The position numbers were made by a program, and so were the translations under genes. The notes below the pieces were generated by a model. It worked only from the letters and a program-made list of their open reading frames with translations, had not been told where the DNA came from and searched no databases. Shown piece by piece: positions 1 to 20,562 of a DNA stretch of 64,000 bases; within the stretch, counting starts at the first letter, position 1; every line of letters starts with the position of its first letter. The DNA is from Eledone cirrhosa (taxonomy: Eukaryota): assembly GCA_964016885.1 (NCBI GenBank), contig OZ024748.1, forward strand, positions 39,122,001 through 39,186,000, read 5' to 3'.

Positions 1-416
1 ATCTGCAACATCGTCAGTGGTGTTATATTTTCCTCCTGTTGTGTTGTATGTCTACGCCATTTTTATTCAGTCTGTCTATATATTTATTTATTTATTTGCT
101 TGTTTGTTTATTTTATTTCGTCTTCTTTGCGTATGCGTTTGCGTGTGTGTATAGTGTTATGTTTGCTGTGTGATGGGTGACTAGTGTGTGTTTATGTGCT
201 TGTTGTTATTGTGCTTGTGTATGTATTTATTTATTTATTTATCTTATTTTATTTACTTATTTATACTTCTCTTAGGTCAGTATTGTTTGTTTGGGTGTTG
301 TTGTTATTCCATTCATTCTTTCTGTTTAGCTTTGGTCTTCTAATTTCTATTTCACTGGCCTCTCTGATTTGCCTATCTGCTGGGTCATTTCTATGTTTAG
401 ATATTATTCTAATTTC

Positions 417-521
417 TATGTTGTCTATGTTACCGTCATGTTGTTGTCTAGCATGTTCGTATAGTACTGAGTACTATACGAACATGCTAGACAACAACAT
501 GACGGTAACATAGATAACATA
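417..521. repeat. Near-perfect 105-bp palindrome (52-bp arms, 1-nt centre)
   Basis: 417-468 is the reverse complement of 470-521 with one mismatch; the centre is g469 (…atagtact-g-agtactat…). Confidence 0.9.
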
Positions 522-552
522 TTCTGGCAATATTACACAAATATGACCCTCC

Positions 553-554
<2 letters not shown>

Positions 555-602
<48 letters not shown>

Positions 603-627
603 ATATATATATGTATATATGTATATA

Positions 628-721
<94 letters not shown>

Positions 722-725
722 CATA
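555..725. repeat. (TA)n/(TG)n microsatellite
   Basis: Read directly. Similar tracts at 1342-1455, 1630-1818, 3193-3258, 18419-18500 and 20565-20640. Confidence 0.95.
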
Positions 726-1338
726 CAGGGGTTGGACAAAATAATGGAAACACCTAGCATCATAGAATCATAATTTTGAAATATCTATAAAACCGTCAAA
801 AGCTTGTTTATTTTTATTGTTCTCGAGGTGGTCATTAATTTTGGTAGTAATTTTGGTAGTAATTTTGGTAGTAATTTTGGTAGTAATTTGGCAGTAATTT
901 TGGGAGCTGTACTTTTGTGATCCTTTCTAACAATTCGCGTAAGAGGCCGACGGTATCTATCTGAAAGTTTTGGTTTTCTTCCGGAGTTTTGTTTCGACGA
1001 GGAGGTTTTTCCCTCTTTCTCAAAGACTGTCATTACTTTCGAGACAGTACTTCTTGATACACCAAACATTTCGGCTGTTTTCGTTACGCTAGCGCCTGCC
1101 ATACGAGCACCAACAATTTGACCTCTTTGAAAGTCCGATAGATCTGTCATTTTAATGAATTTTAATTACCTTTTTCTGATGATATCTGGAGAGAAACAGC
1201 AATTTAAACAAATCATATTAAGCAACACTAATAATAAATTAAAAAAAACATAAAAATAAACAATCTTTTGACGGTTTTATAGATATTTCAAAATTATGAT
1301 GCTATGATGCGAGGTGTTTCCATTATTTTGTCCAACCC

Positions 1339-1341
<3 letters not shown>
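726..1341 (-). mobile_element. Internally deleted Tc1/mariner DNA transposon
   Basis: TIRs of about 80-90 bp (CAGGGGTTGGACAAAATAATGGAAACACC… at 726; reverse complement ending at 1341) with TA on both flanks. Minus-strand ORF 785-1150 (MTDLSDFQRGQIVGARMAGASVTKTAEMFGVSRSTVSKV…SGRKPKLS) is a Tc1-type HTH N-terminus with no DDE domain. A 12-bp tandem repeat (aattttggtagt) lies at about 837-895. Confidence 0.9.
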
Positions 1342-1375
<34 letters not shown>

Positions 1376-1381
1376 ATGTAT

Positions 1382-1455
<74 letters not shown>

Positions 1456-1500
1456 GTGACGAAACATAAGTCAATTGCATGAACTCATAATCCTTTATTT

Positions 1501-1556
1501 ACTGCTATATATATTTCGATGATAGCCATTGAGTGGCTATGACCTCATCAGGCAGT
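1501..1556 (-). ncRNA. Minimal type I hammerhead ribozyme
   Basis: Minus strand reads ACTGC-CTGATGA-GGTCATAGCCA CTCAA TGGCTATCATC-GAAA-TATAT-ATA-GCAGT. Stem I is ACTGC/GCAGT, the core is intact, stem II is present, stem III is short and palindromic, and the cleavage triplet is AUA. Confidence 0.8.
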
Positions 1557-1624
1557 TAGTAAGTTCTTAGATATGCCAGCTCTGTGCTTATGGTGTTGAT
1601 TCTTTCAGAGCCTTGGGGCATATC

Positions 1625-1686
<62 letters not shown>

Positions 1687-1755
1687 TATATAGATATATA
1701 TAATGTATAATGTATATATATAATGTATAGCTATACACTGTATATATAATCATAC

Positions 1756-1821
<66 letters not shown>

Positions 1822-1825
1822 CATA

Positions 1826-1970
1826 TTCCAGCATAGCTACGTCCGTTAACGATCTTAGTTCAAATCCCGACGAGGTTGACTTTGCCTTTCATCCTTACGG
1901 GGTCGATAAAATAAAGAAGCAGTAATGCACTGGGTAATTGCTGGCCTTGTGCCAAAAAAATGAAACAATT
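1826..1970 (+). mobile_element. tRNA-derived SINE (partial)
   Basis: B-box-like AGTTCAAATCCC followed by GACTTTGCCTTTCATCCTTACGGGGTCGATAAAATAAAG; same family as the copies at 13820-14010 and 18607-18783. Confidence 0.7.
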
Positions 1971-2365
1971 ATATATAATATATAATATAGATATGTAATA
2001 TCTAATATAGATATAATAATATAGATATAATATAATATAATAATATATAATATAGATATATAATATATAATTATATATAATATATAATATAGATATGTAT
2101 ATATATAACGTAGTGTGTGCTAGTGTGTATATATGTATGTATATATATATACATATGTGTGTGTGTGTGTAACAATTGTTCTCGGTATGGTGAACTAACT
2201 GTTGTGTTAAAGGGTGAAAGCAGCGATTCTTTGCTTAAACTTTAATCTGTTATTTTAATAAATATTTCCTCTAGGGTTCTTATATATTTGATATATATTT
2301 ATCCTTATCGAGCCCTCTTTGGATTTTAGTCTTCATATTTATTATTATTATTACTATATATATAT

Positions 2366-3192
2366 ACTAGCTGAGGTACCCGGTAATACCCGGGAGCGGG
2401 AGTATTCCCAGTTCCCATTAAAATGCCCAATGCCTCTCAGACTAAAAATGAAATACAAATATAGGACAGATAATCAAAAGCGAAGACAAATTCATTTACG
2501 AAACAATAATACAAACAAATATTGTTGATTACATTGGTCAGGTGAAAATATGTTCGTCAGAGAAGTTGAGTGTTGCTATAAATAAACAAATAGAACCCCA
2601 TTAGGGTGTCTCAATATTATTGACATTTGCTGAAATTTTGTGAATAGGTATCATATCTTGTCATTTACCTATGATTTAAATTTCATATAAATCGAAGGGA
2701 AAACATTTTCAGTGGGGGTGTTCAACGGGGTTTTGTGCCCCTAGGGACCCTTTGATTAAAATGAAATATACTTATCGAAGTACCCTGGGCAATGTAGTTT
2801 TAAAATATATATGGTTATGGGGGTCTATCTCCAAAAGCATAGGAGGAGTTCGTGAAATCTTGTTCCATTTATTGGCCAAAATGTTCACTATAGGGGGTTT
2901 AACCCCCAATAGGGTGTCTCAATATTATTGAAATTTGCTGAATTTTTGTGAATAGGCATCATATCTTGTCATTTACCTATGGTTTAAATTTCTTATAAAT
3001 CGATGGGAAAAAATTAAGCGGGGGTTTTCAGCAGAGGTTTGAACACCCGGGGAACCCTTTGATTAAAATGAAATATACGTAAGAAATCAAATGGGCATGA
3101 GCCCCCACACACGTGTCAAGCTACATCAAGATCCGTTTGTTAGTTTTTGAGTTTTAGGTTCACAAACAAACAAACAGAGAGAAATTGCCATT

Positions 3193-3200
<8 letters not shown>
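2366..3200. mobile_element. Non-autonomous Helitron/Helentron-like repeat with internal ~308-bp duplication
   Basis: Begins TACTAG…CCCGGTAATACCCGGG (hairpin-like) and ends ACAAACAAACAAACAGAG…TTTATATATA. 2600-2770 is duplicated at about 2908-3080, and a partial copy lies at 13440-13690. Confidence 0.55.
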
Positions 3201-3256
<56 letters not shown>

Positions 3257-3259
<3 letters not shown>

Positions 3260-4332
3260 TATAAAGCTAACGGCCGTATGTATGTAACAAACTTTTCGCC
3301 AAACGGCTGGACCAAACAGCACCAAATTTGCACTATAGATGTAACTTTTTCCAAGTAAAAAAGTGAGGGTATTTTTGTCTACTGAATTTTGTTAAAAGAT
3401 TAAAGACATTATTTAAATATTCACTTCTTTAAAATTTCAAATGTCAACACTTCCTGTTATACGACATTCCTCACTTTTTTTCGTCGCACAACATTCCCCT
3501 CTTTTTCTTAGTCTGTCTTTTTAGATAGATATAGGGCTATAACGTAGCGTCTTTATAATATGTCTCTGTATGTCTGGCTGTCTGTATTAGATAACGTTTT
3601 TCGAAATATTTACTTCTGGGTTCACAGATTGATTTTTTTTAGTTTCAGAAGTTAAGGGTGAAAGCCTTTGCTTAAACATTGTTATTTTAATATATATATT
3701 CGTGTACAGATATTTTGCATACACAAAAACAAAAACCTATTTATTTCACTAAAGCACAGACGGCTTATCGTCATTGTTACTGTTCGAGGTTAGAGGACCA
3801 CAGTCTTTCCAAGATCTGAGAACCATCAATAGCCATCAATGTTCCACTTACCGTTTGGCTTGCCAGATGCGTGGTTTGTTACACGATGACACCTATTGGC
3901 ACCTCACCCTGCAAGAAGCAGCAACTGCTAAAGTCCCTTCTCAGCTGCGAAAACCTTTTGCTATTATGCTGCACAACTGTGATCTCGCCACCCCGAAAGT
4001 CTAGTTGAGGACAACCTCCACCGCACACGCAGATACAATCCGAGCGTAACATACGATGTCGTTTTCAATGAGGCGCTCATCTGTCTTGAAAACAGTGTCC
4101 TGGAGATTGGTGGTAGGCTTCTAAGTCACTACAGCTTACCTGCTCCTGGCAGGAGTGTCCTGAGGTCAATGTCTACAGAGCTTCTCCGCGAGACGAGCTA
4201 CGAGATCAGTGCTTCTCCAGTGGTCAATTGTATGTAGGATGCTCTAGGGTGAGCTCGCCAAACAATCTCTTCATCTTTGCTCCGGAGGGCCGAACAAAAA
4301 ATATTGTATACTCTGAGGCTCTAACAATGTAA
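3257..4332 (+). mobile_element. Degraded Helitron with RepHel (Pif1-like helicase) fragments
   Basis: ORF 3774-4004 (LLFEVRGPQSFQDLRTIN…TYRLACQMRGLLHDDTYWHLTLQEAA…SQLRKPFAIMLHNC) matches a conserved Helitron RepHel block. About 4222-4332 encodes GQLYVGCSRVSS…TKNIVYSEAL, the Helitron helicase C-terminus. There are stops and a large internal deletion. Confidence 0.8.
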
Positions 4333-4840
4333 TTTAAATATTTTCTGTTACTTGGAATTTTCATTTTGGTTGTACAAATTATTGTTTGTTAAAAAATGTG
4401 TTCTCTGTTCAGCCTTTATTGTTGTAACTCTCAATTATCTTTAACGTACTGGCTGCTGAACTGGGGAATCCTAAAACTATTCAAACCCAACATCAGAGCA
4501 CGTTAACCATTTGGATAGTGAAAGAAAAAGAGAAAAATTTTAAATCTTTTATGAGGGATATGCAAATGAAGTATAAGAGTAGACTGAAAATATCGTTATA
4601 TTTAGACGCCAGGTACATTTAAATAATTATTAGGATACTTTATAAAAGAAGATGAAGCAGAAGAAGGAAGAAAGATAGGCTCATATTATTATTAGGGTGC
4701 AAGTAGATTTAAAAATTTAAAATGTGTTGAAGTGGTAGAATACTAAACCAAAAAGTTTTCAATATATAACCAAATCATGAGTTATAATATATATATAATG
4801 TATATAATTATATTTTAAGGAATTAAGGTTGTAGGTACAC

Positions 4841-4952
4841 TTTAGCTTATTATATTGCAACCAGTCAATTTAGCTTATTATATTGAAACCAGTCAATTTA
4901 GCTTATTATATGGAAACCAGTCAATTTAGCTTATTATATTGCAACCAGTCAA
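4841..4952. repeat. 28-bp minisatellite x4
   Basis: TTTAGCTTATTATATTGCAACCAGTCAA repeated four times. Confidence 0.9.
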
Positions 4953-5121
4953 TTATATACATATTTATATAAATAGATAAAAATATATACATGCTGTTAT
5001 TAATTCAAATATAATTTAAGGTTTACGAAGGATATGTGTTTACATTTTCAATATATAGTTAAGAAAAAAAAGTCCAAGATGGCACGGATGGGGTGGGCAG
5101 GAAGGAGACGTCCATACCATA

Positions 5122-5129
5122 ATGCCAAT
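5122..5129 (+). CDS. Candidate short first coding exon of the TIL-like gene (M-P-I)
   Basis: ATG CCA AT|GTAAGA: purine at -3 and a strong phase-2 donor matching the phase-2 acceptor at 5687. The spliced N-terminus would be MPISDFIEPFKIH, similar in length to bacterial TnaA/TPL N-termini. Speculative. Confidence 0.35.
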
Positions 5130-5229
5130 GTAAGACAGTAGCTATTGTCATTTTATCGTGTCAGTTGATATTACGTTAAATATAATTCCGGTTTTATCTG
5201 TGATTTACTGATATAGCTTACGTCAATTG

Positions 5230-5620
5230 TTTCTTCTTCGTCCAGTTATTTCTGAGAGGGTCGTGGGGTCAGAGTCCTCCAACACTCCTTCCAGCAAGTC
5301 ATGTCAGAAGCAACCGTTTCCATCTGATCCGGCTGGATCTCCCAAGCATGACCAGCCAAGCTCATGGATCTTAGCAAACCATCTTACTCAGGGTGGGTCG
5401 ATCCCTGGGTCTCTTGTCGGTTTGTTTTGCCCGTAAAATCTGTCCGGTGATTCTTTCCTGAGACATTCTAACCACATGTCCATAGTATCAGAGCTGTGAT
5501 CTCTCAATTCGGAGAAGTAGCGGCTCTACCTGGAGTAACTCTCTGATCTCAGAACTACGCACCCTATCGAGTAACATTACTCCAAAGACCCTTTAGAGGA
5601 ATCCCATTTCGGCCGCTTGT
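5230..5620 (-). mobile_element. RTE-like LINE 3' fragment
   Basis: Similar to 8700-9100 (TTCTGAGAGGGTCGTGGGG…AACACTCCTTCCAGCAAGTCATGTCAGAAGCAA…AGGAATCCCATTTCGGCC) with a (TTC)n tail; degenerate RT C-terminus. Confidence 0.65.
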
Positions 5621-5687
5621 ATTGTTTCTATTTACGAAATAACACAACTGAGGATTTTAATAGTGTCAAATTTTCGTTTCCTTTCAG

Positions 5688-7185
5688 TTCCGACTTTATC
5701 GAACCATTTAAAATACATATTGTAGAGAACATAAAGATCAATAACCGTAACGACAGATTAATTGCTCTCGAGAAAGCTGACTACAACATCTTTAAATTAC
5801 AACCTGAAGATGTCATGATCGATTTCCTTACAGATGCTGGCACTAATGCTTTCAGTCTTGAACAAAACGCAAGAATATGGATGGGTGATGAAAGTTATGC
5901 CGGATCTACTAGTTATGAAACTTTGAAAGACACGGCAACATATATTTCTGGTTTTGAAAACATTCTGCCAGTTTTTTCTGAATGTATCAGCGAAGAGATT
6001 GTCGCTTCTTATTTCACAAAAGCTGGAGATAAGGTTATTGGGAATACTTTTACTTATTCACTTGAGAAGCATATAAAGGATCTTCATGCTGAAGCGATTT
6101 CTTTGTTAGATTGGTCAGATAATAATTTTGCAGGAAATCTAGATGTTCAAGCACTCAAAAACTTATTGGCAGAAAATGATAAAAAATCAATTTCCTTTCT
6201 TATAATGAATGTACCAGCAAAAAGTAGTGGTGGCCAACCAGTTAGTATGTCAAACATGAAAGCAGTTTCTGATCTCTGTCGCGAACATTCGATTCCGATA
6301 TACATCGAAAGTAGTATGTATGGTGAGAACTGTTGGCTCAATAAAATGTACGAAGAGGCTTACTTCAATAAATCGTTAGTTGAGATATCGCAAGAAATGT
6401 TTTCTTTTTTCGATGGCTGCATTATTTCTGCTAAAAGAGATGGTAGAAGTGAGATTGGAAGTGTCATTTGTCTTCAAGACAAAGAAATGACTCGAAAATT
6501 GGGCACTGTTATTACTCTTAAAGCAGGTTTCATAACTTATGGTGGGATGGCTGGCCGAGATATGGAAATTGTAGCGGTTGGCATGCGAGATGCTTTGGAT
6601 GAACAACTGCAAGACTATCGACAAAAACAATTGGCATTTTTCAAAAAATCCCTGAAGGAATTTGGTGTTCCGATTGTGGAGCCAGTCGGTTGTAATACCA
6701 TCTTCATTGATGCCGAAAATGCTTTTCCTAACTGTAAACACGCGTTTTATCCAGCCTGGTCTTTATCTTGTGCTGTTTATATCGTCGGGGGTATCCGATG
6801 CGCAGAGTTTGGTCAAGTTACCCGTCCAACAAGCAGCTTACCCACTAATCATTTTCTGAAAGACCGAGAATTACTAAAGCTAGAGATACCTCGTTTCATC
6901 TATACGACTTGTCACATTTTCTATGTTGCCTATGTTTTCGCTCAGCTTATTTCACATGAAATGCTTTCTGGAATGAAACGTATTGCCTGCTCCGAAGACC
7001 AAATAAAAATCGTGAAAATAAAAATGAAACCAAATCATTCTCTGGAATATGACGATATCCAACTCCTTCCGGTACAAGACTGTGAACACAATCACTTCTT
7101 TAAAAACATATCTAATCAAAGAGTTATGAAAAGAAATTCAATCGCCGAGGCATCTTCTATATGGTCAGTCGACATTCCTTCTTAA
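5688..7185 (+). CDS. tnaA: Tryptophan indole-lyase (tryptophanase)/beta-eliminating lyase-like, copy 1: PLP site degenerate, catalytic Tyr retained; probably an exon
   Basis: Motifs EPFKI, YNIFKLQPEDVMIDFLTDAGT, MGDESYAGS, GGQPVSMSN, SAKRDG, GFITYGGMAGRDME and EIPRFIYT align with TnaA/TPL. The ORF-track start (5617) is TTG and there is no early ATG. A polypyrimidine tract with CAG ends at 5687, just before the homology begins. Possible donor TG|GTCAGT at 7163/7164. Confidence 0.88.
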
Positions 7186-7380
7186 AAAGGGGACAAACAC
7201 GTTAGATAATGTAATCGTAGACACAAAAAAGACGTGGTGGTCATGATTGGAACGTCCCTGATCATATAATTGCTCTGTCAATGTTGACCTGAACTTAAAC
7301 AACAGCAACAACAACACAGAAATTTTTTTTTTGTTGCACCCAAACAGGGTTCTGTAAATTCTAGATTGTACATTCTTTTA

Positions 7381-7523
7381 TTCTTTTACTGGTTTCAGTC
7401 ATTAGACTGTGGCCATGCTGGGGCACTGTTCTTTTACTGGTTTCAGTTATTAGACTGTGGCCATGCTGGGGCAGTGGTCTTTTACTGGATTCAGTGATTC
7501 TACTGTGGCCATGCTAGGGCACC
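7381..7523. repeat. 48-bp x3 tandem repeat, probably derived from a SINE end
   Basis: TTCTTTTACTGGTTTCAGTCATTAGACTGTGGCCATGCTGGGGCACTG, three diverged copies. Confidence 0.8.
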
Positions 7524-8699
7524 AATTGATTGTTAGTTTATTTTTTTTAATTGGTTTTATTACCAACAATTAAACTATTGAACATGATTTTGAATAGAAA
7601 GTAGGGGAAAACATTGACAGTCTTGTCAAATATAGTTTTAATATTATGTTAACAAACCATGAAATAAAATATCTTTGGAAACTTAAATATATTTCTTGTG
7701 ATGTTCTTTTTACAATTATTTCACCAATATATAATTAATATGAAACATTGTGATGTATGTTTCACCAATATATAATTAATATGAAACATTGTGATGTGGT
7801 TGTGATAATTCGGGGAAAGATGGTACAACGAATATTAGATAAACTAAGGTGAAAAGATACAACAAATCAGCATTTTAAACTTTTGTCTTATATTTCTTGA
7901 TATTTTGAGGTGAAAAACTTTTTTCAAAAGAAAGAAATGGAGTCTGGTGTTGTCAACGCCCAAAGAAATGTTGATAAACGATTTATTTACATCAACTTAT
8001 TATTGATGGTGACATGCTTTTGTTTCACTTTAAAAAAATATTATAATAAGGTGACATACTAATATAAATATTATTTTAAAAATAAAAAACAAATCTTGAA
8101 ACATCTTATGACTGTGGCAGTGGCAAGGTTTATAGAGTTAAGAAGCCTCACAACCATCTGATTTCCGGTTCCTTTAGACTACATGGCATCTTAAAGAAGT
8201 GTCTTTCTGCCATAGGTTCGAGTCAACAAAACGGACAGTTTGCCCTTTTCGGCTTGGCGGGCAGCAGGGCCTGTACTGGTGGTGGAATGCACCAGGTTGG
8301 CACTTGCAATTAATTGTAATATTACTGATAGATGTTGTTTCAATTCTGTGCCATTAATTGTAGATCAACGACAACATTGTTGCAGTAGTTATTTCAATTC
8401 TGTGCCATTAATAATCTGTGTTACGAACACTACATAAATAGTCTACAGGTGTTACCTTGATTTCACCAGATGGAAATATCAAAATCAAAATTGATTATGT
8501 AATTGTTCCAAACAATATTCTCGAAATGCTGAAAAACTGCCATGTGTATATTTCTACAGATATTGGTCTAGAATATTTCAACTTAGAGGCTGGAAAACAC
8601 AAACGTTATTATCATAAATGTACTGTGATTGTGTGAGGCTTAATTATTAAAGATTGTAAAATCCATTCCCAGTGAATTGGTCAAACTATATCCAAGAAT

Positions 8700-9530
8700 T
8701 TTCTTTTTCTTCCTTCACTTATTCCTGAGAAGGTCGTGGGGGAAGAGTCTTCAAACACTCCTTCTAGCAGGTCCTGTCAGAAGCAATCATCTCCAACTGA
8801 TTTGGCTGGATCCCCAAGCGAGACCTGCCAAGCTTATGGATGTTATCCAACTATCTTGCTCAGGGTCTACTCCTGGGTCTCCTGCTGGTTGGTTTTGCCA
8901 ATAAAATCTGTCCAGTATTTCCTTGGACATTCTAGCCATATAATATGTAATATCAGAGCTATGATTTCTCAATTCGGAGAAGTATCAATTCTAACAGGAG
9001 TGATTCACAAGTCTCCAAGCTACACACACTATCGAGTAATGATACTCCAAATACCCTTTTGGAGGAACCCCATTTTGGCCACTTGTATTTGCGATTGTAT
9101 TCTTTCAGTCATTACACAAGATTCATGACCATAGGTAAGGGTTGGCACGAAAACCGAATTGAAGATAGTGAGTTTGGTGTTTACACCTACCTCCCTTCTT
9201 CTGATTACCAAATGCCAAAGCTGTCACATTACTGCAGCAGCTCCTGCAATTATTGCACTTAATTCGGCCTCCTGCCTTCCATCACTCGTGACCATGGCCC
9301 TGAGATACTTGAACTTCTCTACCAACTTCAGTAGAACTCCCTTCGCATGTAGAATGCACTGCGCAGGCTTCCTTTAGAAGACGAGTGTCTCAGTTTTCAC
9401 AGCACTGAATTTCATTCCAGCCATGCAGCACTCTGCATCAAACCTATCAAGTGCAAGTCAGAGATCACCTTTTGTTGAGTTTGTAACACCATGTTGTCTG
9501 CAAATTCCAGCCACAAATTGCTGGCCATGT
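8700..9530 (-). mobile_element. RTE-like LINE 3' fragment (RT C-terminal region, frameshifted)
   Basis: Minus-strand peptides TKLTIFNSVFVPTLTYGHESCVMTERIQSQIQVAKMGFL (9029-9211) and EKFKYLRA (about 9295-9320) are typical of LINE ORF2 downstream of the RT core. Confidence 0.8.
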
Positions 9531-9594
9531 GCCTAAATTAGAAAACCTTATTCCTGCAAAAGGTCCTGTTAATCCTTAATTATTATTAAATATA

Positions 9595-9766
9595 ACATAT
9601 ATACAAACTGGAGCTGTGTCAGGGACCAGTCCGCAAACATATATACAAACTGGAGCTGTGTCAGGGACCAGCCTGCAAACATATATACAAACTGGAGCTG
9701 TGTCAGGGACCAGTCCGCAAACATATATACAAACTGGAGCTGTGTCAGTGACAATGTCTGCAAACA
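9595..9766. repeat. 42-bp minisatellite x~4
   Basis: ACATATATACAAACTGGAGCTGTGTCAGGGACCAGTCCGCAA in tandem; this explains the repetitive ORFs at 9569-9862. Confidence 0.9.
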
Positions 9767-10090
9767 ATGAGTTGAACATTTTAACACCAAGAATATATGA
9801 TAAATAAAAACTACAGTTAACAGATTTTTGTGTTTTGAATTACTAAAGTGACTCGTGTACAATGTAATTGGTATATATATATATACTCACTCTATATGTA
9901 TGTGTTTTTATATAAATATGTAAATATTTGTGTATATATATATATATATAGTTGTTATATAGTAAGGTGTATTATTGGTTGTGTCATACGGTCCAATAAA
10001 CTTTTGTTAGCAATATTAAGTTCTCCACGCTTTTGTATATCTCCAATTCCATTTAAGGGAACAGCTAGATGATGTAAAATGGAGTATTTG

Positions 10091-11688
10091 TATCAAAATA
10101 AAGATCCGAAAGCATGGTATAAATTTCCAATCATTTTAATCACAACACGTTTCAATAAGGGATAGATCGATCGTGTGGTCATGATCGATTATCACTGATT
10201 TCATCATTTTTAACTGAGTGTGTAATACGTCTATTTACTAACTGAGAGAACTCTATGGTTAGGGTATTCTAAACCTTCCTCAGGATTTTTGGAAAGTAAC
10301 CTACCACTAACTCCTCCCTTTTTACCTTAGCCATAGAGTTCTCTCAATTAGCAAAAAATAGACAATCACACACTCAGGTAGTAGACAGCTAAGATCGTTT
10401 GCGCACCTACACACTGTACTCGGTATGTTTCCACAGAGTTCTCACAGCTGAGTGCATATTTACCATTACTTTAGAATACCTAGTTAGTAAATAGTTAGAA
10501 CAATTACACTCGCAGTTAAGACCGATTACGCGCATTCACCATTACTTTAGAATACCCTAACCATAGAGTTCTCTCAGTTAGGAAATAGACGTATTACACA
10601 CTCAGTTAAGAACGTTACGCTCTTTATACATAATTCTACACAGTACCCGGTTTCTTTAGACACAGAGTTGCCACAGTTATGACCAGTCATGATCTTGTCG
10701 ATTGAATACTACACTAGGTTTTGGTCTGTGATCCTCTAACCAAGGAGTGCTCACAGTTTGCTGAATGGACAATACTACTTACACGCCATCAATGGACTTA
10801 CACACATCCCCGGTGTTTTGTTATTTTATTTTGTGTTGGGTAACACACCTCCACCACTCAAACACTTATCTTAAAGGCCCGAGGGCCCATTTGACGGGAA
10901 AACGCACACACTGACAGCTTAACTCAAATACCCAACCCTATATGGAGCCCCTTGTTGGCCTACATGGCAGGTGCTTGCACGCACAGACTCGGGGACCCAG
11001 ATTCTCAACGGGACAACGGCACATATAGAGTTCGATACGAGCTGACTACTTGCTCTACACATGGATGTGTATATACCAAAACATACACTATTTAGACGAT
11101 ACAGATGTTACAATTCAATCGATACACGTATAGCAGAACGTTGAAGGGAATTTACTTGCGTGTGTATAGTGTTGTGGTTGACCCAATTTTTTTCTAATTT
11201 ACATCGTGAAAATTGAGATTTGACCAATATAACGTTTGTTGTTTTGTAACCTAACTTTTGGTGCATACTGTGTTGCTGTGTATATTTTTTTTTCTCTGAC
11301 CTCGCGTCGGTGTGTGTGAGTGTGTGTGCACTCAATAAAACTAATTGTGACGGACCAAAATTCTACAGATCTGGTGCTGAGATTAGACCTGTCCAGCGTC
11401 TTTTACAGCTATTGAGAGATAGAGACTTGATAGATTTATGACCCTGACTGAAGACAATAGCAGTTGTCGTGTTTGGCTGCTGATTATTCATATGGGGAAC
11501 AAAACTCCAGTGAGTGAACATCGTTAGTTTTTCCTCCCTCATATCAAAGATTTGAAGACATTTCATTATTCACCTGATGAGATCAGTGATAATCGATCAT
11601 GACCACACGATCGATCCCTTATTGAAACATGTGTCGTGATTAAAATGATTGGAAATGTATACCATGCCTTCGGATCTTTATTTTGATA
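10091..11688. mobile_element. Element bounded by ~115-bp inverted repeats carrying a hammerhead motif (Penelope-like pLTR type, non-coding)
   Basis: 10091-10206 is the near reverse complement of 11575-11688. A nested inverted repeat pairs about 10210-10273 with about 10546-10609. Confidence 0.6.
11570..11639 (+). ncRNA. Type I hammerhead ribozyme
   Basis: TCAC-CTGATGA-[GAT…ATCGATC…GATCGAT…ATT]-GAAA-C-ATGT-GTC-GTGA. Stem I is TCAC/GTGA, the core is intact, stem III carries palindromic ACATGT, and the GUC triplet is at 11633-11635. Confidence 0.7.
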
Positions 11689-11735
11689 TATATATATAAA
11701 ACTGAATTTACATTTTTTTTTCCAGTCTCCAAGCA

Positions 11736-13115
11736 ATGGAACCTTACAGGATTAAGGTATTTTATCCAGTCAATTTAATCCCCAAGTCTGACCGTATTGC
11801 ATGTCTAAAAGCTGCCAACTACAACCCCTTTCTACTTAAATCGAAAGACATATTTATAGATTTGCTAACAGATTCTGGTACAGGAAGTCAAAGCAGTGCC
11901 CAGTGGTCGGCTATGACTAAAGCCGGCTATTCAACTATTAATTCCGAATACGTTAAAGAATTTGTACGTACAATTCAACACATTACCAATTTCAAACATG
12001 TATTTCCAGTTCATCAAGGTCGAGGAGCCGAAGATTTGTTGGCAAAACTCCTACTGAATAAAGAGAGTGTTGTACTGAGTAATTCTCTGTTTGACACAAC
12101 ACGAGCACACGTTGAGTCATCTGGTGCAATTGGAATAGATTTGGCAACAAAGTCTTCAAAATTCTTAGGTGATGCCGATGTGGAAAACTTTGAAGAAACA
12201 CTGGATAAATATGGTTCTAGAGTTCATCTTGTAATAATAACCTGCACCAATAATGTGGTAGCCGGAGCTCCTGTGAGCATGCAAAATATAGAAATCATAA
12301 CAAAATTATGTCGAAACAAGAATATCCCAGTTATAATGGACGCATGCCGTTTTGTTGAAAATGCTTATTTTATCAAGACCTTAGACGAAAAATATTCTAA
12401 ACACACAATCTTAGATATTGCCAGCGAAATGTTTTCTTATTTTGATGGTGCAACTATGTCTTTAAAGAAAGATGGTATGAGCAATGGAGGTGGGTTTATA
12501 GCTTTCAACAACGACAAATGGGCCACCAAAATATTTGACATAATCGAATATAAAAGTGGTTATTCAACTTACGGGGGAATAACTGGATCAAATCTTGTAG
12601 CATGTACTGTCGGAATTTCTGAGGCTATGAACGAAAATTACCTCCGATCAAGAATCTATCAGGCTAAATTACTGGCTGATTTCTTGGAAGATAATAATAT
12701 TCCCGTATTTAAACCAGTAGGGGCCCATGCCGTCTACGTGAAAGCAAACAAAGTCTTGCCACACCTTGATTTCTTGAAGTATCCAGCATGGTCCCTTAAT
12801 TGTGCCGTATATATCGAAGGTGGTATTCGATGTGGAGAAATTGGCAATGTAATGTTTGGTGGAAATTCAGATGGAACTAAACAAATTCATCCCTTTGAAT
12901 ATGTGCGTTTGGCTTTACCCAGAAGAACCTATACGGTCAACCATCTGCATTTTGTGGCCAAAACTTTTGGTTTTGTTGCCAAAAAAGCCCATTTAATCCA
13001 CGGAATGGAAATTGTCAAATCTTCGCATCTCCTGAGACATTTCTCAATTTGGATGAGACCATTAAATGAATACCACCTTGAAAAGAATAATAATCAGAAA
13101 AAAATAAACTGTTGA
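11736..13115 (+). CDS. tnaA: Tryptophan indole-lyase (tryptophanase)-like, copy 2: PLP site intact, catalytic Tyr motif degenerate
   Basis: 459 aa with EPYRIK, IDLLTDSGTG, HQGRGAE, FDTTRAH, TCTNN, MDACRFVENAYFIK, SLKKDG (PLP Lys codon 12468), RLALPRRTYT and LRHFS. FDTT and LRHF are TIL-type (TPL has FTTT and LRFF). An acceptor TTTTTTTTTCCAG ends at 11725, so the exon may start at 11726. Confidence 0.92.
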   Translation: MEPYRIKVFYPVNLIPKSDRIACLKAANYNPFLLKSKDIFIDLLTDSGTGSQSSAQWSAMTKAGYSTINSEYVKEFVRTIQHITNFKHVFPVHQGRGAEDLLAKLLLNKESVVLSNSLFDTTRAHVESSGAIGIDLATKSSKFLGDADVENFEETLDKYGSRVHLVIITCTNNVVAGAPVSMQNIEIITKLCRNKNIPVIMDACRFVENAYFIKTLDEKYSKHTILDIASEMFSYFDGATMSLKKDGMSNGGGFIAFNNDKWATKIFDIIEYKSGYSTYGGITGSNLVACTVGISEAMNENYLRSRIYQAKLLADFLEDNNIPVFKPVGAHAVYVKANKVLPHLDFLKYPAWSLNCAVYIEGGIRCGEIGNVMFGGNSDGTKQIHPFEYVRLALPRRTYTVNHLHFVAKTFGFVAKKAHLIHGMEIVKSSHLLRHFSIWMRPLNEYHLEKNNNQKKINC

Positions 13116-14599: not shown

Positions 14600-14815
14600 T
14601 CAAACTTCTCTGGACTCGCAGACATACTTGGCATTGCTTCACCAACATAGTAAAACCAACCAGCAGGAGTCCCAGGGGTAGACCCCAAGCAGGATGGATG
14701 GATAACATCCATGAGCTTGGCTGGTCTTGCTTGGGGATCGAGCCAGATCAGTTGGAAACGGTTGCTTCTGACAGAACCTGCTGGAAGGAGTGTCTGAGGA
14801 TTCTGCAACAGCATT
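14600..14815 (+). mobile_element. RTE-like LINE 3' fragment
   Basis: RSPRGRPQAGWMDNI…LETVASDRTCWK is the LINE ORF2 C-terminal motif; it is the reverse-complement homologue of about 8740-8910. Confidence 0.7.
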
Positions 14816-15525: not shown

Positions 15526-16288
15526 ATATATGGATAATAGGATGAATTTGGTACAACCAATAAATTATAAAGGCAACAAATATTTTCTTGTTTTAATATT
15601 GCAGTTTATACATATCTTAAGAAGCAGTATAAGAAAAGCTTACATTTCATTTTCAAACTTAAGTAAAAAATAAAATATATATTTATTTTCAATTTTTAAA
15701 ATGCGAGCAAAAACATAAAATCGATTTCAATATTCATCACACACACATATATATACATGTATATTATTTGGAAAAAAAAAGGGGGTGGGGTAAAGTTTTA
15801 TACAAAAAAATGATGACCAGTTCGAATATTTGAGAGAAAACTCAAGTATATTCGAACTGCTCAGATATTAAAAAATTTTTTTTTATTAATATTCAATATT
15901 TAACATCTAATATTTGATAAAATTGTTTTACCAATCGAAACCAGTTATATTTAATGCAACAATTATAAAATTATTCATTCTGTCAGATTAAAGAAAAAAT
16001 AATCTTTTAATATTCCCTGGACTTTGGCAATTTCAACCCCCTACCAACAGTACTGCTGGTTCACTCTGGGTCACAGCGTTTGAGACAAGTCAGAGCGTAG
16101 AGGCCAAATAATTATTTTAAATTATTCTATGAAAAATAAAAATTAATTACACGTATCTAAATATCACAATTTATTTTGTTGGATGATCTACCAACTTTGC
16201 CATCAACCAGTCATTTCTATCAAATAATTTCCAATAATATTTGTGAATATGAAAAGGTAAAGAAAGATCTATATATGTGTGTGTATAT

Positions 16289-17317
16289 ATAACGTCTGAA
16301 TAGCTCAGGCTGTCATAACTGATAGTCCTCGGTGAAATGTGTATAACGTCTGAAGAGCTCAGGCTGTCATAACTGATAGTCCTCAGTGAAATATGTATAA
16401 CGTCTGAAGAGCTCAGGCTGTCATAACTGATAGTCCTCAGTGAAATATGTATAACGTCTGAAGAGCTCAGGCTGTCATAACTGATAGTCCTCAGTGAAAT
16501 GTGTATAACGTCTGAAGAGCTCAGGCTGTCATAACTGATTGTCCTCGGTGAAATGTGTATAACGTCTGAAGAGCTCAGGCTGTCATAACTGATAGTCCTC
16601 AGTGAAATATGTATAACGTCTGAAGAGCTCAGGCTGTCATAACTGATAGTCCTCAGTGAAATATGTATAACGCCTGAAGAGCTCAGGCTGTCATAACTGA
16701 TAGTCCTCGGTGAAATGTGTATAACGTCTGAAGAGCTCAGGCTGTCATAACTGATAGTCCTCAGTGAAATATGTATAACGTCTGAAGAGCTCAGGCTGTC
16801 ATAACTGATAGTCCTCAGTGAAATATGTATAACGTCTGAAGAGCTCAGGCTGTCATAACTGATAGTCCTCAGTGAAATGAGTATAACGTCTGAAGAGCTC
16901 AGATTGTCATAACTGATAGTCCTCGGTGAAATGTGTATAACGTCTGAAGAGCTCAGGCTGTCATAACTGATAGTCCTCAGTGTAATATGTATAACGTCTG
17001 AAGAGCTCAGGCTGTCATAACTGATAGTCCTCAGTGAAATATGTATAACGTCTGAAGAGCTCAGGCTGTCATAACTGATAGTCCTCAGTGAAATGAGTAT
17101 AACGTCTGAAGAGCTCAGGCTGTCATAACTGATAGTCCTCGGTGAAATGTGTATAACGTCTGAAGAGCTCAGGCTGTCATAACTGATAGTCCTCGGTGAA
17201 ATGTGTATAACGTCTGAAGAGCTCAGGCTGTCATAACTGATAGTCCTCAGTGAAATATGTATAACGTCTGAAGAGCTCAGGCTGTCATACCTGATAGTCC
17301 TCAGTGAAATGTGTATA
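16289..17317 (+). repeat. 54-bp x19 tandem array; each monomer is a minimal hammerhead ribozyme
   Basis: Unit ATAACGT-CTGAAGA-GCTCAGGCTGTCA TAAC TGATAGTCCTCAGT-GAAA-TATGT/TGTGT; units start at 16289+54n for n=0-18. Confidence 0.9.
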
Positions 17318-17547
17318 GCAGAGTTTTAAATAAATCTGAATCGACTGATAATGGCCTCCAACCTTTTAATAGTGTGTGTATACAAATGAGATTGTTTAGC
17401 CTTATATACCTTTCCACAATAATATATATATATATATAAGTAGAAGTGGTATTTAATTTGTTGGAAGTCCGACAAACATAGATGTTTATAACTGATTTAG
17501 AGCACTCAACAAATTACTGGAGTAAATATTCAATGATATTAAATAAA

Positions 17548-18932: not shown

Positions 18933-20562
18933 TTCAAAAGGAATATAAATTAAAATAAGGAAAGAATGTTACATAAATGTAATGTTCCATATATTGGTAT
19001 TTCACTATGGTGACCTGGGTATATCAATTGTCTGCCATAGTCGAGCAGTATTCTTCTGTCGAGGCTGCATTGTGTGAGATCTGCCTATGGGTAACAAGAT
19101 GGTCGCCAATGGACATATTTACCTTACTAATTAGAGGGTGGTTTCAGGGGAAGTAACTCCTCGAGAGATTAGAAATTGTGGGTAGTTTATAGTTAAGTGC
19201 TAATTTTTTTATTTTGAGACAATGTAAGGGAGGTAACTTATAATTATTTAAGTTAGTTATAGCTATTTAACTTATTAGCTACAAGTAAAAATGGGGCTAG
19301 ATGACTATGTTGGCGAAGGAATTAGCCCTTCGATGTTGACAGCTAATAGTTACCTTCGTTCTATCATTAATCAGTTGAGGTTGTGATAGAGTTATGTAAT
19401 ATGCTTCGGTAAGACAGAGGTCACAAGATTTTCTTCGTCCATTGAACGGTTGGGCCCTGAGTGTTAGTGAGTGTTCAATGTTGGTTAATTTAAGGTTTTT
19501 AATGAGCCTAGCTAGAGATGTCGAACATCTGTTGTTAGGGTCTCAGAAGGAAAAAGAGTGCGCGTTATAGCGTACATTAAAAGGTTTAGAGGTAGACCCA
19601 ATATAGGAGCTGGTATGCGAAGCAGTTTTAACTGTGCATCTATAGACTATGTTGGGTGTCAGGCAATGTCCATTTAGTGGGCATGCATTAGGGTAACGGC
19701 AGTTACAGTTACTTCTGCGGTTAGTGAGAGTAGGGTTGTTTAACCTAAGCGGTTGGTCAGTGCTAGAAGGATTAGATGGGGGAGGTGTGCTACTAGAGTA
19801 AGTATTGGTGTAGTGGCGTGGTGTATCCGATGGGGGGTGGTGGTACCGCGGTGTGGGAGTTATACTGTCTTAGTTTATCATGGTTACTGAATGTGATGTG
19901 GCAAGCTAAGTTAGGTGTTGTGGAGAATGAGATTTTAATGTTATTTTTATTAAAGAGTTTGTAATATCTATGGTGGGGGGGGGGTTTAGATAGGATAGAC
20001 AAGAAGCATTTAGGGATATTAGTGGCTAGATTAGATGAGAATGGGGGGTTAAGCCAGGTGATATTTCTAGGCATATTCCTTCTAGGGGTTCTAGTGGAGT
20101 TGGAACATTACATTTATGTAACATTCTTTCCTTATTTTAATTTATATTCCTTTTGAAGTTCCGATGAGCTGCTCTATCTTTACCTATGTTAATTATTTTC
20201 AACTGAACCAGATCAATAATGATATATAATCATTTGATCCAGAAATATTATATGGAGTAGAGAAACAATTGTAAACGGACATTATTATTATTAATATTAT
20301 TATTATTAGTCTCTACATTCCTTACATCAAACTAAAATATGTTGACAATCTTTTAATAATGTCTTCCTTGTGAAATGTGTGGTCTTGTTTCACTTAACTA
20401 ATGAATATTTCCAGCTCTGTGCACCTAACCTCTGCATGAACCCAGCCACCTAGCTGCTTTCTACTGCATATTGCACATTGAGCACATGCCTTTACGCTTT
20501 GGCTTCTAACTAATTCACCAATCTCTCCTTTATCTCTCTCTTTAAGATTGGTTACTCTTGAA

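What the first reader, a model, noticed from the sequence alone, without database searches (positions are those of the whole stretch)
5122..13115. Phase-matched splice sites predict a single fused two-domain TIL polypeptide of about 957 aa
Seen: both coding blocks are preceded by clean polypyrimidine-CAG acceptors (ending at 5687 and 11725) in the same phase, one nt before the next codon. Near the end of copy 1 there is a phase-2 donor, TG|GTCAGT (7163/7164). Splicing 7163 to 11726 gives in-frame …EASSI-C-LQA-MEPYRIK and skips the stop at 7183-7185. Copy 1 has about 40 aa beyond the normal TIL C-terminus that could act as a linker. A candidate first exon, ATG CCA AT|GTAAGA (5122-5129), is also phase 2, giving 8+1476+1390 = 2874 nt. 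Because exon 5688-7163 is symmetric, alternative splicing could produce the fusion, copy 2 alone (skipping) or copy 1 alone (read-through to the stop). Inference: covalent fusion would enforce pairing of the two complementary half-enzymes.
Basis: partly seen in the sequence, partly recalled or inferred. Interest (0 to 1): 0.85.

Follow-up and report, generated by a model that had tools for sequence, protein, structure and literature searches.

The report
One gene, two complementary half-enzymes
In this octopus-type genome a tiny first exon just outside the window is likely spliced to either of two whole tryptophanase-coding exons, one keeping the catalytic tyrosine and the other the cofactor lysine, so two separate proteins would pair into one working enzyme; the proposed fused protein fits on paper but has no support.

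Summary
The splice signals and reading frames are as described, but the fusion is not the best reading. The real first coding exon (MDFSD-CT|GTAAG) lies 421 bases before the window. With it, copy 1 and copy 2 give exactly the N-termini of RefSeq isoforms X1 and X2 of one Octopus bimaculoides gene (likewise O. sinensis): one gene, two alternative last exons, two separate proteins. The acceptors match in phase because they are duplicates, both 10 nt before the (M/I)EP codon. Copy 1 keeps the residues lent across the dimer (Tyr71, Tyr291) and lacks the PLP lysine; copy 2 is the reverse. This pair appears published (Yuasa 2023; title seen, content recalled). In 6 of 6 other octopod records copy 1 stops before the proposed donor; here a lost stop adds 24 residues, and a donor this good arises there by chance 5-10% of the time. 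No RNA could be examined, so a third, fused isoform remains possible (about 10%). New here: the unit is amplified about tenfold in 1 Mb, half the copies broken, and bacteria carry an independent, truly fused tyrosine phenol-lyase with the same division of labour.

The parts
1..5687 (+). In-window part of intron 1 (6091 nt in all, GT..AG). It begins after the shared first coding exon, which lies OUTSIDE the window at G000:C8:39121580-39121596 (window base 1 = 39122001, so the exon starts 421 bases before it): M-D-F-S-D + CT, start context GCCATGG, donor GTAAGA, phase 2, with a TATA-like ATAAATA 51 nt upstream of its ATG
   Evidence: (9 pattern hits in the genome, all in this array, control 0); matches the N-termini of XP_014791032.1 and XP_014791033.1
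5122..5129 (+).
5671..5687 (+). Acceptor A (pyrimidine tract + CAG), 10 nt before the IEP codons
5688..7185 (+). Last exon A, coding part: tryptophanase-fold subunit without its own active site; 504 aa with exon 1
5896..5898 (+). Copy A Tyr (Tyr71 of TPL / Tyr72 / Tyr74 of TIL), the general acid lent to the partner subunit; kept
   Evidence: role from PMC11301627
6436..6438 (+). Copy A Arg in place of the PLP lysine (Lys257)
6538..6540 (+). Copy A Tyr291 equivalent, second residue lent across the dimer; kept
   Evidence: role from PMC2770544
7111..7185 (+). 24-codon extension found only in this genome; relatives stop at 7110; a TAA lies out of frame at 7113-7115 (stop loss inferred)
7161..7169 (+). 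Candidate donor ATG|GTCAGT, phase 2; present in 10 of 10 full-length A copies; use untested
7663..7668 (+). AATAAA followed by a T/GT-rich tract: likely poly(A) signal of isoform A; present in 10 of 10 units
11709..11725 (+). Acceptor B (pyrimidine tract + CAG), 10 nt before the MEP codons
11726..13115 (+). Last exon B, coding part: PLP-binding subunit lacking Tyr71; 468 aa with exon 1
11934..11936 (+). Copy B Thr in place of Tyr71
12468..12470 (+). Copy B PLP lysine (Lys257); kept, with Asp at 124 (12093-12095), Arg404 (12906-12908) and His at 448 (13038-13040), the tryptophanase-type set

Best explanation
A 17-base first coding exon 421 bases before the window is likely spliced to either exon A (5688) or exon B (11726), giving two separate proteins of 504 and 468 residues that would pair into one tryptophanase active site, B holding the PLP lysine and A lending the catalytic tyrosine. 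Shown: the exon, both acceptors, open frames, the complementary loss of residues, the same two N-termini in RefSeq isoforms of two Octopus species. Inferred: the splicing in this genome (from those records), choice between last exons by proximal splicing plus cleavage at the 7663 signal versus skipping to the distal acceptor, and the origin by tandem duplication of the large exon with its acceptor behind one promoter. One promoter would co-express the two halves without fusing them. Inferred from known structures: an A-B dimer has one working site where the bacterial homodimer has two; A-A and B-B have none. Substrate is likely tryptophan (Asp124, non-Arg381, His448 in B). The in-phase donor at 7163 is likely a chance site in old 3' UTR that became coding when the stop was lost in this lineage.
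For: O. bimaculoides XP_014791032.1 'isoform X1' starts MDFSDL-SDFIEPF and XP_014791033.1 'isoform X2' starts MDFSDL-LQAMEPY; O. sinensis XP_036366181.1 (X1) and XP_029647098.2 (X2) likewise; each pair lies on a contig of the same length. The back-translated exon is found with a GT donor 9 times in 3.0 Gb, all in this array, control 0; none lies between A and B of this unit. Exon 1 + A and exon 1 + B reproduce both N-termini letter for letter. Both acceptors are 10 nt before the (I/M)EP codon. Residue table: 7 of 7 A rows keep Glu69, Tyr71, Tyr291, Arg297 and lack Lys257, Asp214, Arg217, Asn185, Arg404; 9 of 9 B rows keep Lys257, Asp214, Arg217, Asn185 and lack Tyr71 and Glu69. Tyr-72* comes from the other chain of the catalytic dimer (PMC11301627, passages); Tyr74 and Tyr307 bind the neighbour's PLP (PMC2770544, passages). 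6 of 6 other octopod A records end at the FFxxx motif; two more distant A proteins (P0061, P0314) also end on their own. Poly(A) signal after A in 10 of 10 units. In the 810-2310 aa search 1 of 58 hits was cephalopod-like, and it is not A-then-B.
Against: No RNA from this organism was examined, so no junction is shown here. RefSeq XP models are predictions; that X1 and X2 share one gene is read from their labels, consecutive accessions and identical first six residues, not from coordinates. The O. vulgaris A model has another N-terminus (P0179), and the distant A protein P0314 starts MDSANAIYL, unlike distant B proteins (MNFDEL, MDFNEM), so the shared exon is supported only for Octopus-like species. 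B keeps its own in-frame ATG (11736) and two strong GT sites lie upstream of it (9135, 11510), so a second promoter is possible. The stop loss is exactly the change a fusion would need, and the donor is in all 10 copies (but these are about 99% identical). On my rough matrix the true exon-1 donor scores lower (-0.95) than the candidate donor (2.28), so a weak score cannot dismiss the candidate. B keeps Tyr291 in this genome (Phe in O. bimaculoides and O. sinensis), so complementarity at that site is partial.
Confidence: 0.82

Rival explanations
1. Besides the two separate isoforms, this lineage makes a third, fused isoform (exon 1 - A - B, 960 aa): loss of A's stop opened old 3' UTR up to an in-phase donor, turning the last exon A into an optional internal exon and giving a single-chain heterodimer.
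For: Frame is open end to end. The stop loss and the donor are in 10 of 10 full-length A copies. Chance of so good an in-phase donor in the 72-nt extension is only 0.05-0.10. Bacteria have a natural fusion in the same order, Tyr donor first and Lys carrier second: 16 of 18 two-domain proteins and 9 single ORFs among 80 loci; the octopus linker would be about 30 residues longer than theirs (137 versus 99-107 between two motifs in the 6 of 9 proteins measured), so it is long enough.
Against: Not conserved: 6 of 6 other octopod A records stop 53 nt before the donor position. A 1476-nt internal exon must outcompete a poly(A) signal 499 nt downstream. The extension shows 3 amino-acid-changing and 0 silent differences among 8 copies (too few to test). 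No A-then-B cephalopod protein among 58 long hits (the tool calls a blank weak evidence). One promoter already co-expresses both halves.
Confidence: 0.1
2. A and B are in effect two genes here: A uses exon 1, B is mainly made from its own promoter between the copies and starts at its own ATG (11736).
For: B has an in-frame ATG; strong GT sites at 9135 and 11510; several B records begin at MEP (P0300, P0309, P0183).
Against: RefSeq X2 proteins of two Octopus species carry the six upstream residues and three distant unnamed B proteins a similar leader; acceptor B is in phase with exon 1; no exon-1 pattern between A and B.
Confidence: 0.06
3. One reading: exon 5122-5129 starts a 957-aa fused protein that is the main product.
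For: The model is open and in phase.
Against: The conserved first exon lies elsewhere; 5122-5129 is 1 of 5 equal chance candidates, has a poor start context (CCATA-ATG-C) and is missing upstream of 2 of 10 copies; stand-alone A and B proteins are annotated in relatives.
Confidence: 0.02

Closest known systems
Cephalopod TIL-alpha / TIL-beta (Yuasa 2023, J Mol Evol 91:912, PMID 38007709; title seen in the reference list of PMC12980246; paper not held; content recalled)
   Same: As recalled: two cephalopod tryptophan indole-lyase paralogues older than the octopus-squid split, each inactive alone, weakly active together as a heterotetramer. Matches A and B.
   Different: I could not see whether that paper reports the shared first exon. 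The tenfold array, the broken copies and the stop loss with an in-phase donor are features of this genome. Which of A and B is alpha was not determined.
RefSeq tryptophanase isoforms X1/X2 of Octopus bimaculoides (XP_014791032.1, XP_014791033.1) and O. sinensis (XP_036366181.1, XP_029647098.2)
   Same: Orthologues, 76-77% (A) and 82-83% (B) identical; same shared N-terminus and same residue losses.
   Different: Their A proteins end 24 residues earlier; no fused isoform among the cluster members listed (3 of 3 A, 4 of 4 B).
Bacterial tryptophan indole-lyase and tyrosine phenol-lyase (PF01212; PDB 1AX4, 2EZ1)
   Same: Fold type I PLP lyase; active site built from two subunits.
   Different: Homotetramers in which every subunit holds both the lysine and the tyrosine; neither octopus subunit reaches the equivalog cut-offs.
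Engineered E. coli H463F + Y74F hybrid dimers (Phillips 2002, PMID 11900544; title only)
   Same: Two defective subunits rescue activity by sharing one site.
   Different: Made in vitro from point mutants; here the division is natural and A and B are only 30% identical.
Two-domain bacterial tyrosine phenol-lyases of about 900 aa
   Same: Same division of labour: N half keeps Tyr71 and Tyr291, C half keeps Lys257 and Arg404.
   Different: Truly one chain; TPL-type (Thr124, Arg381, Phe448); separate from the cephalopod pair in the tree, so an independent origin is inferred.

Membership tests
Tryptophanase / TPL family (PF01212, NF009709) | Profile score above the curated cut-off | tested here: met
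   PF01212 127.6 and 177 bits (cut-off 27); NF009709 399 and 490 bits (cut-off 285)
Bacterial TnaA or TPL equivalogs (TIGR02617, NF053783, TIGR02618) | Equivalog cut-off | tested here: not met
   282-383 bits against cut-offs of 721-826
Canonical homo-oligomeric TIL | PLP lysine and its partners (Lys257, Asp214, Arg217, Asn185, Arg404) in the subunit | tested here: not met
   Met by B, not by A (Arg, Glu, Met, Lys, Lys)
Canonical homo-oligomeric TIL | Tyr71/72/74 in the same polypeptide as the PLP lysine | tested here: not met
   A has it, B has Thr
TIL rather than TPL specificity | Asp at 124 (Asp133), His at 448 (His458), no Arg381 | tested here: met
   B has Asp, His, Ile; roles of Asp133 and His458 from PMC11301627; the Arg381 rule is recalled
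Cephalopod TIL-alpha/beta pair (definition recalled) | Two ancient paralogues, each with disabling substitutions, complementary | tested here: met
   A and B each form a clade (100/100) with the same two subgroups
Cephalopod TIL-alpha/beta pair (definition recalled) | Inactive alone, active as a hetero-oligomer | not testable with these tools
   needs enzyme assay
One gene with alternative last exons | Shared first exon in frame with both acceptors, each last exon with its own stop and poly(A) signal | tested here: met
   orthologous RefSeq isoforms
One gene with alternative last exons | Junction reads for both isoforms in this organism | not tested
   no reads were laid
   open in silico; no transcript or protein record
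   6 of 6 other octopod A records stop before the donor position

The most novel reading that the evidence does not exclude
In this octopus lineage a gene that already encodes both halves of an obligate heterodimeric tryptophanase as alternative last exons has, by losing one stop codon, gained a third splice form that joins the halves into one 960-residue chain, and the unit was then amplified tenfold. It would be a fusion caught at birth, repeating a solution that bacteria reached independently in a two-domain tyrosine phenol-lyase with the same domain order.
Probability: 0.1. Interest if true: 0.72.

Novelty: new variant of a known kind. Interest (0 to 1): 0.42.

Why it matters
The complementary cephalopod pair seems already published, and the shared first exon is already in RefSeq, so the core is known. 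What this locus adds: (1) a plain genetic reason why two individually dead paralogues stay co-expressed, namely one promoter and one first exon; (2) a recent tenfold amplification with about half the units broken, which suggests a dosage change for an enzyme whose role in octopuses is open; (3) a one-step route to a fused enzyme that one RT-PCR can test; (4) an apparently undescribed bacterial family that has the fused form for real, making 'shared active site, then complementary decay, then fusion' a repeated evolutionary path in PLP lyases.

Tried and rejected
RNA evidence: the look-up of sequencing runs listed 4 runs of one study, no RNA holder listed (no evidence either way); no reads were laid, so all junctions stay untested. 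Fold of A: submitted, not finished at the last collection, no result used; a fold of the bacterial two-domain protein was not run. Phase match as a sign of fusion: rejected, explained by duplication. Argonauta hians model GAB1609293.1 (P0001, 847 aa) looked like a fusion but is a truncated B joined to A's acceptor, with A ending at the usual place and separate B models numbered on both sides; I read it as a gene-prediction join, coordinates not checked. Donor scoring used approximate frequencies recalled from memory, not an octopus-trained model, and it ranks the true exon-1 donor below the candidate, so it was used only for chance counts. Selection among array copies: A core 18 amino-acid-changing and 10 silent (pN/pS 0.47; 8 of 10 copies, U5 and U10 left out for indels), B 11 and 4 (0.76; 7 of 9, U2 and U3 left out), extension 3 and 0: too few to decide. 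Trees: whether A and B are sisters against the chiton enzymes is unresolved (support 51; open fork and unfinished test); one search is the quick tree, 2 of 75 rows dropped (P0022, P0044). Literature: 10 searches found no held paper on the shared exon, a cephalopod fusion or the bacterial two-domain enzyme; most subscription papers, including Yuasa's J Mol Evol paper, are not in the library. Earlier findings of the scan: 3 look-ups, nothing.
Full report
Observation. Both blocks are tryptophanase-family proteins (PF01212, NF009709 above cut-off), 30% identical to each other. Their closest named relatives are from Octopus and Argonauta (70-83% identity), so the genome is an octopod's; I did not identify it further.

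The real gene structure. The homologue searches returned both halves as separate proteins of one gene. O. bimaculoides XP_014791032.1 ('tryptophanase 1 isoform X1', copy-1 type, here A) begins MDFSDL-SDFIEPF and XP_014791033.1 ('isoform X2', copy-2 type, here B) begins MDFSDL-LQAMEPY; O. sinensis has the same X1/X2 pair. Back-translating those six residues plus a donor found a perfect exon 9 times in the 3.0-Gb genome, all inside this locus, with 0 control hits. It has a GCCATGG start context and an ATAAATA 51 nt upstream. Spliced to 5688 it gives 504 aa and to 11726 it gives 468 aa, with N-termini identical to X1 and X2. That X1 and X2 share an exon is inferred from labels, consecutive accessions, contig length and sequence; RefSeq models are predictions. 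More distant unnamed B proteins carry a similar leader (MNFDEL, MDFNEM), but the one distant full-length A protein (P0314) does not match it, so the shared exon is supported for Octopus-like species only.

Why the acceptors match. Both lie exactly 10 nt before the (I/M)EP codon that starts the conserved fold. They are, by inference, one ancestral acceptor duplicated with its exon, so the phase match is expected and says nothing about fusion.

The half-enzymes. With TPL numbering (recalled, and checked by counting along the PDB chains), 7 of 7 A rows keep Glu69, Tyr71, Tyr291 and Arg297 and have lost Lys257 (Arg), Asp214, Arg217, Asn185, His343 and Arg404; 9 of 9 B rows keep Lys257, Asp214, Arg217, Asn185 and His343 and have lost Tyr71 and Glu69 (alignment). 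In solved TIL, Tyr-72* comes from the other chain of the catalytic dimer and donates the proton for indole release (PMC11301627, passages), and Tyr74 and Tyr307 bind the neighbouring subunit's PLP (PMC2770544, passages). So A keeps what is lent and B keeps what is used at home; an A-B dimer would have one complete site. B has Asp124 and His448, the tryptophan-specific pair described. A and B each form a fully supported clade with the same two subgroups, so the duplication is older than the split between octopods and the more distant relatives; the chiton and coral enzymes tested are intact. This is very probably the TIL-alpha/TIL-beta pair of Yuasa 2023, whose title I saw in the reference list of PMC12980246 (passages and introduction read); the paper is not held and its content (inactive alone, weakly active as a heterotetramer) is recalled. 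A second Yuasa paper on metazoan TIL was seen as a reference entry only (PMC13342648). PMC8537960 (passages) lists octopus among tnaA carriers; the passages seen give no such detail. No supplements were read.

The proposed fusion donor. In 6 of 6 other octopod A records the protein ends at the FFxxx motif (window 7110); here it runs 24 residues further, a TAA sits two bases out of frame at 7113, and the donor is 53 nt past the old stop position. In relatives a splice there would follow a stop codon, so a fused protein cannot be conserved. An in-phase GT at least as good is expected 0.05-0.10 times in those 72 nt and 0.10-0.18 times in 135 nt (rough recalled matrix and consensus match). An AATAAA with a T/GT-rich tract follows about 499 nt after the donor in 10 of 10 units, as expected of a last exon. 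Among 58 long homologues (810-2310 aa) only one is cephalopod-like, the Argonauta model P0001, which is a truncated B joined to A, not A to B. Against my reading: the stop loss is exactly what a fusion would need, the chance figure is low enough to give a real likelihood ratio, the donor is in 10 of 10 copies (though these are about 99% identical), and the true exon-1 donor scores worse than the candidate on the same matrix. No reads were laid, so the junction is untested. I put a real third isoform (960 aa with the true exon 1) at about 10%.

The array. The unit is repeated: 12 A-type and 9 B-type matches among 21 (29 candidates scored) between 39.12 and 40.13 Mb of contig C8. Of 10 units with a full-length A region, 6 have exon 1 upstream on the same strand; 4 (this one, U4, U7, U9) have exon 1, a 498-codon A and a 462-codon B, and a fifth (U8) differs only by a further read-through of A; B is frameshifted in two and has a premature stop in one, A is frameshifted in one, one A has no B within the 13 kb fetched downstream, and two inverted fragments carry exon 1 and a truncated A. 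Coding parts differ by 0.82-0.88 per 100 bases and spacer or UTR by 1.15-1.33, so the amplification is recent and came after the stop loss. Copy number was not checked by read depth.

A natural fused counterpart. The long-protein search returned many proteins of about 900 aa with two lyase domains. In 16 of 18 examined, the N half keeps Tyr71 and Tyr291 and lacks Lys257, and the C half keeps Lys257 and Arg404 and lacks both tyrosines (P0002 and P0015 do not fit). They are TPL-type and lie apart from the cephalopod proteins in the quick tree. Two searches found no paper on this family in the held library.

Verdict. Observation confirmed; interpretation partly supported. Best reading (0.82): one gene, a shared first exon, two alternative last exons, two separate complementary subunits, a known cephalopod enzyme pair in a recently amplified array. 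Interest 0.42; new variant of a known kind.

Noticed in passing
P0003-P0013, P0019, P0020, P0035, P0062, P0068, P0315, P0316; loci L053-L058, L064, L069, L123: Bacterial family of about 900-aa two-domain tyrosine phenol-lyases with complementary halves (N half Tyr71/Tyr291, C half Lys257/Arg404) in one ORF, in several phyla; no paper found. Possibly the most novel thing seen here.
   Followed up: partly
G000:C8:39.12-40.13 Mb: About ten 99%-identical exon 1-A-B units over 1 Mb, half broken, with two inverted fragments (exon 1 + truncated A) and one inverted exon 1 at 39975909 with no A in the stretch fetched.
   Followed up: partly
L051, L060, L062, L091, L111, L113, L118, L122: 8 of 80 bacterial loci carry an apparently intact tryptophanase-type gene directly next to a TPL-type gene (three are cut by the locus edge); such tandems could be the raw material for complementary decay.
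   Followed up: no
P0318, P0319, P0015, P0002: Two-domain proteins that do not fit the complementary pattern (both halves keep the lysine); they may be earlier stages or a separate fusion.
   Followed up: no
P0001, P0186, P0309 (Argonauta hians, GAB1609292-294): Three consecutive models hold three B-type and one A-type sequence, suggesting tandem duplication of the locus in Argonauta too; its A keeps an ATG (SEFMEPF) where Octopus-like A copies have Ile.
   Followed up: no
P0185/P0305/P0306 versus P0303: One cluster of distant B proteins holds two near-identical types, one with changes in the C-terminal active-site region (PNRT for PRRT, RHL for RHF), hinting at further decay or a new substrate.
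   Followed up: no
P0064 and P0462 (Liolophura sinensis): The chiton has two tryptophanase-like paralogues on a contig of the same length; P0064 keeps all tested catalytic residues.
   Followed up: partly
window 22700-64000: About 41 kb of a strand-skewed (GC skew near -0.47) satellite with a unit of about 48 bases and higher-order repeats, giving long spurious ORFs.
   Followed up: no
window 5231-5594 and 8704-9059: Two 78%-identical copies of a dispersed repeat, one in intron 1 and one between A and B, with a third partial inverted copy near 14652-14805.
   Followed up: no
window 785-1165 (-), 19543-20107 (-), 16171-17325 (-): A Tc1/mariner-like transposase fragment, a retroelement-like fragment and a minisatellite of about 54 bases, judged by eye from the ORF list; family names recalled, not tested.
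   Followed up: no
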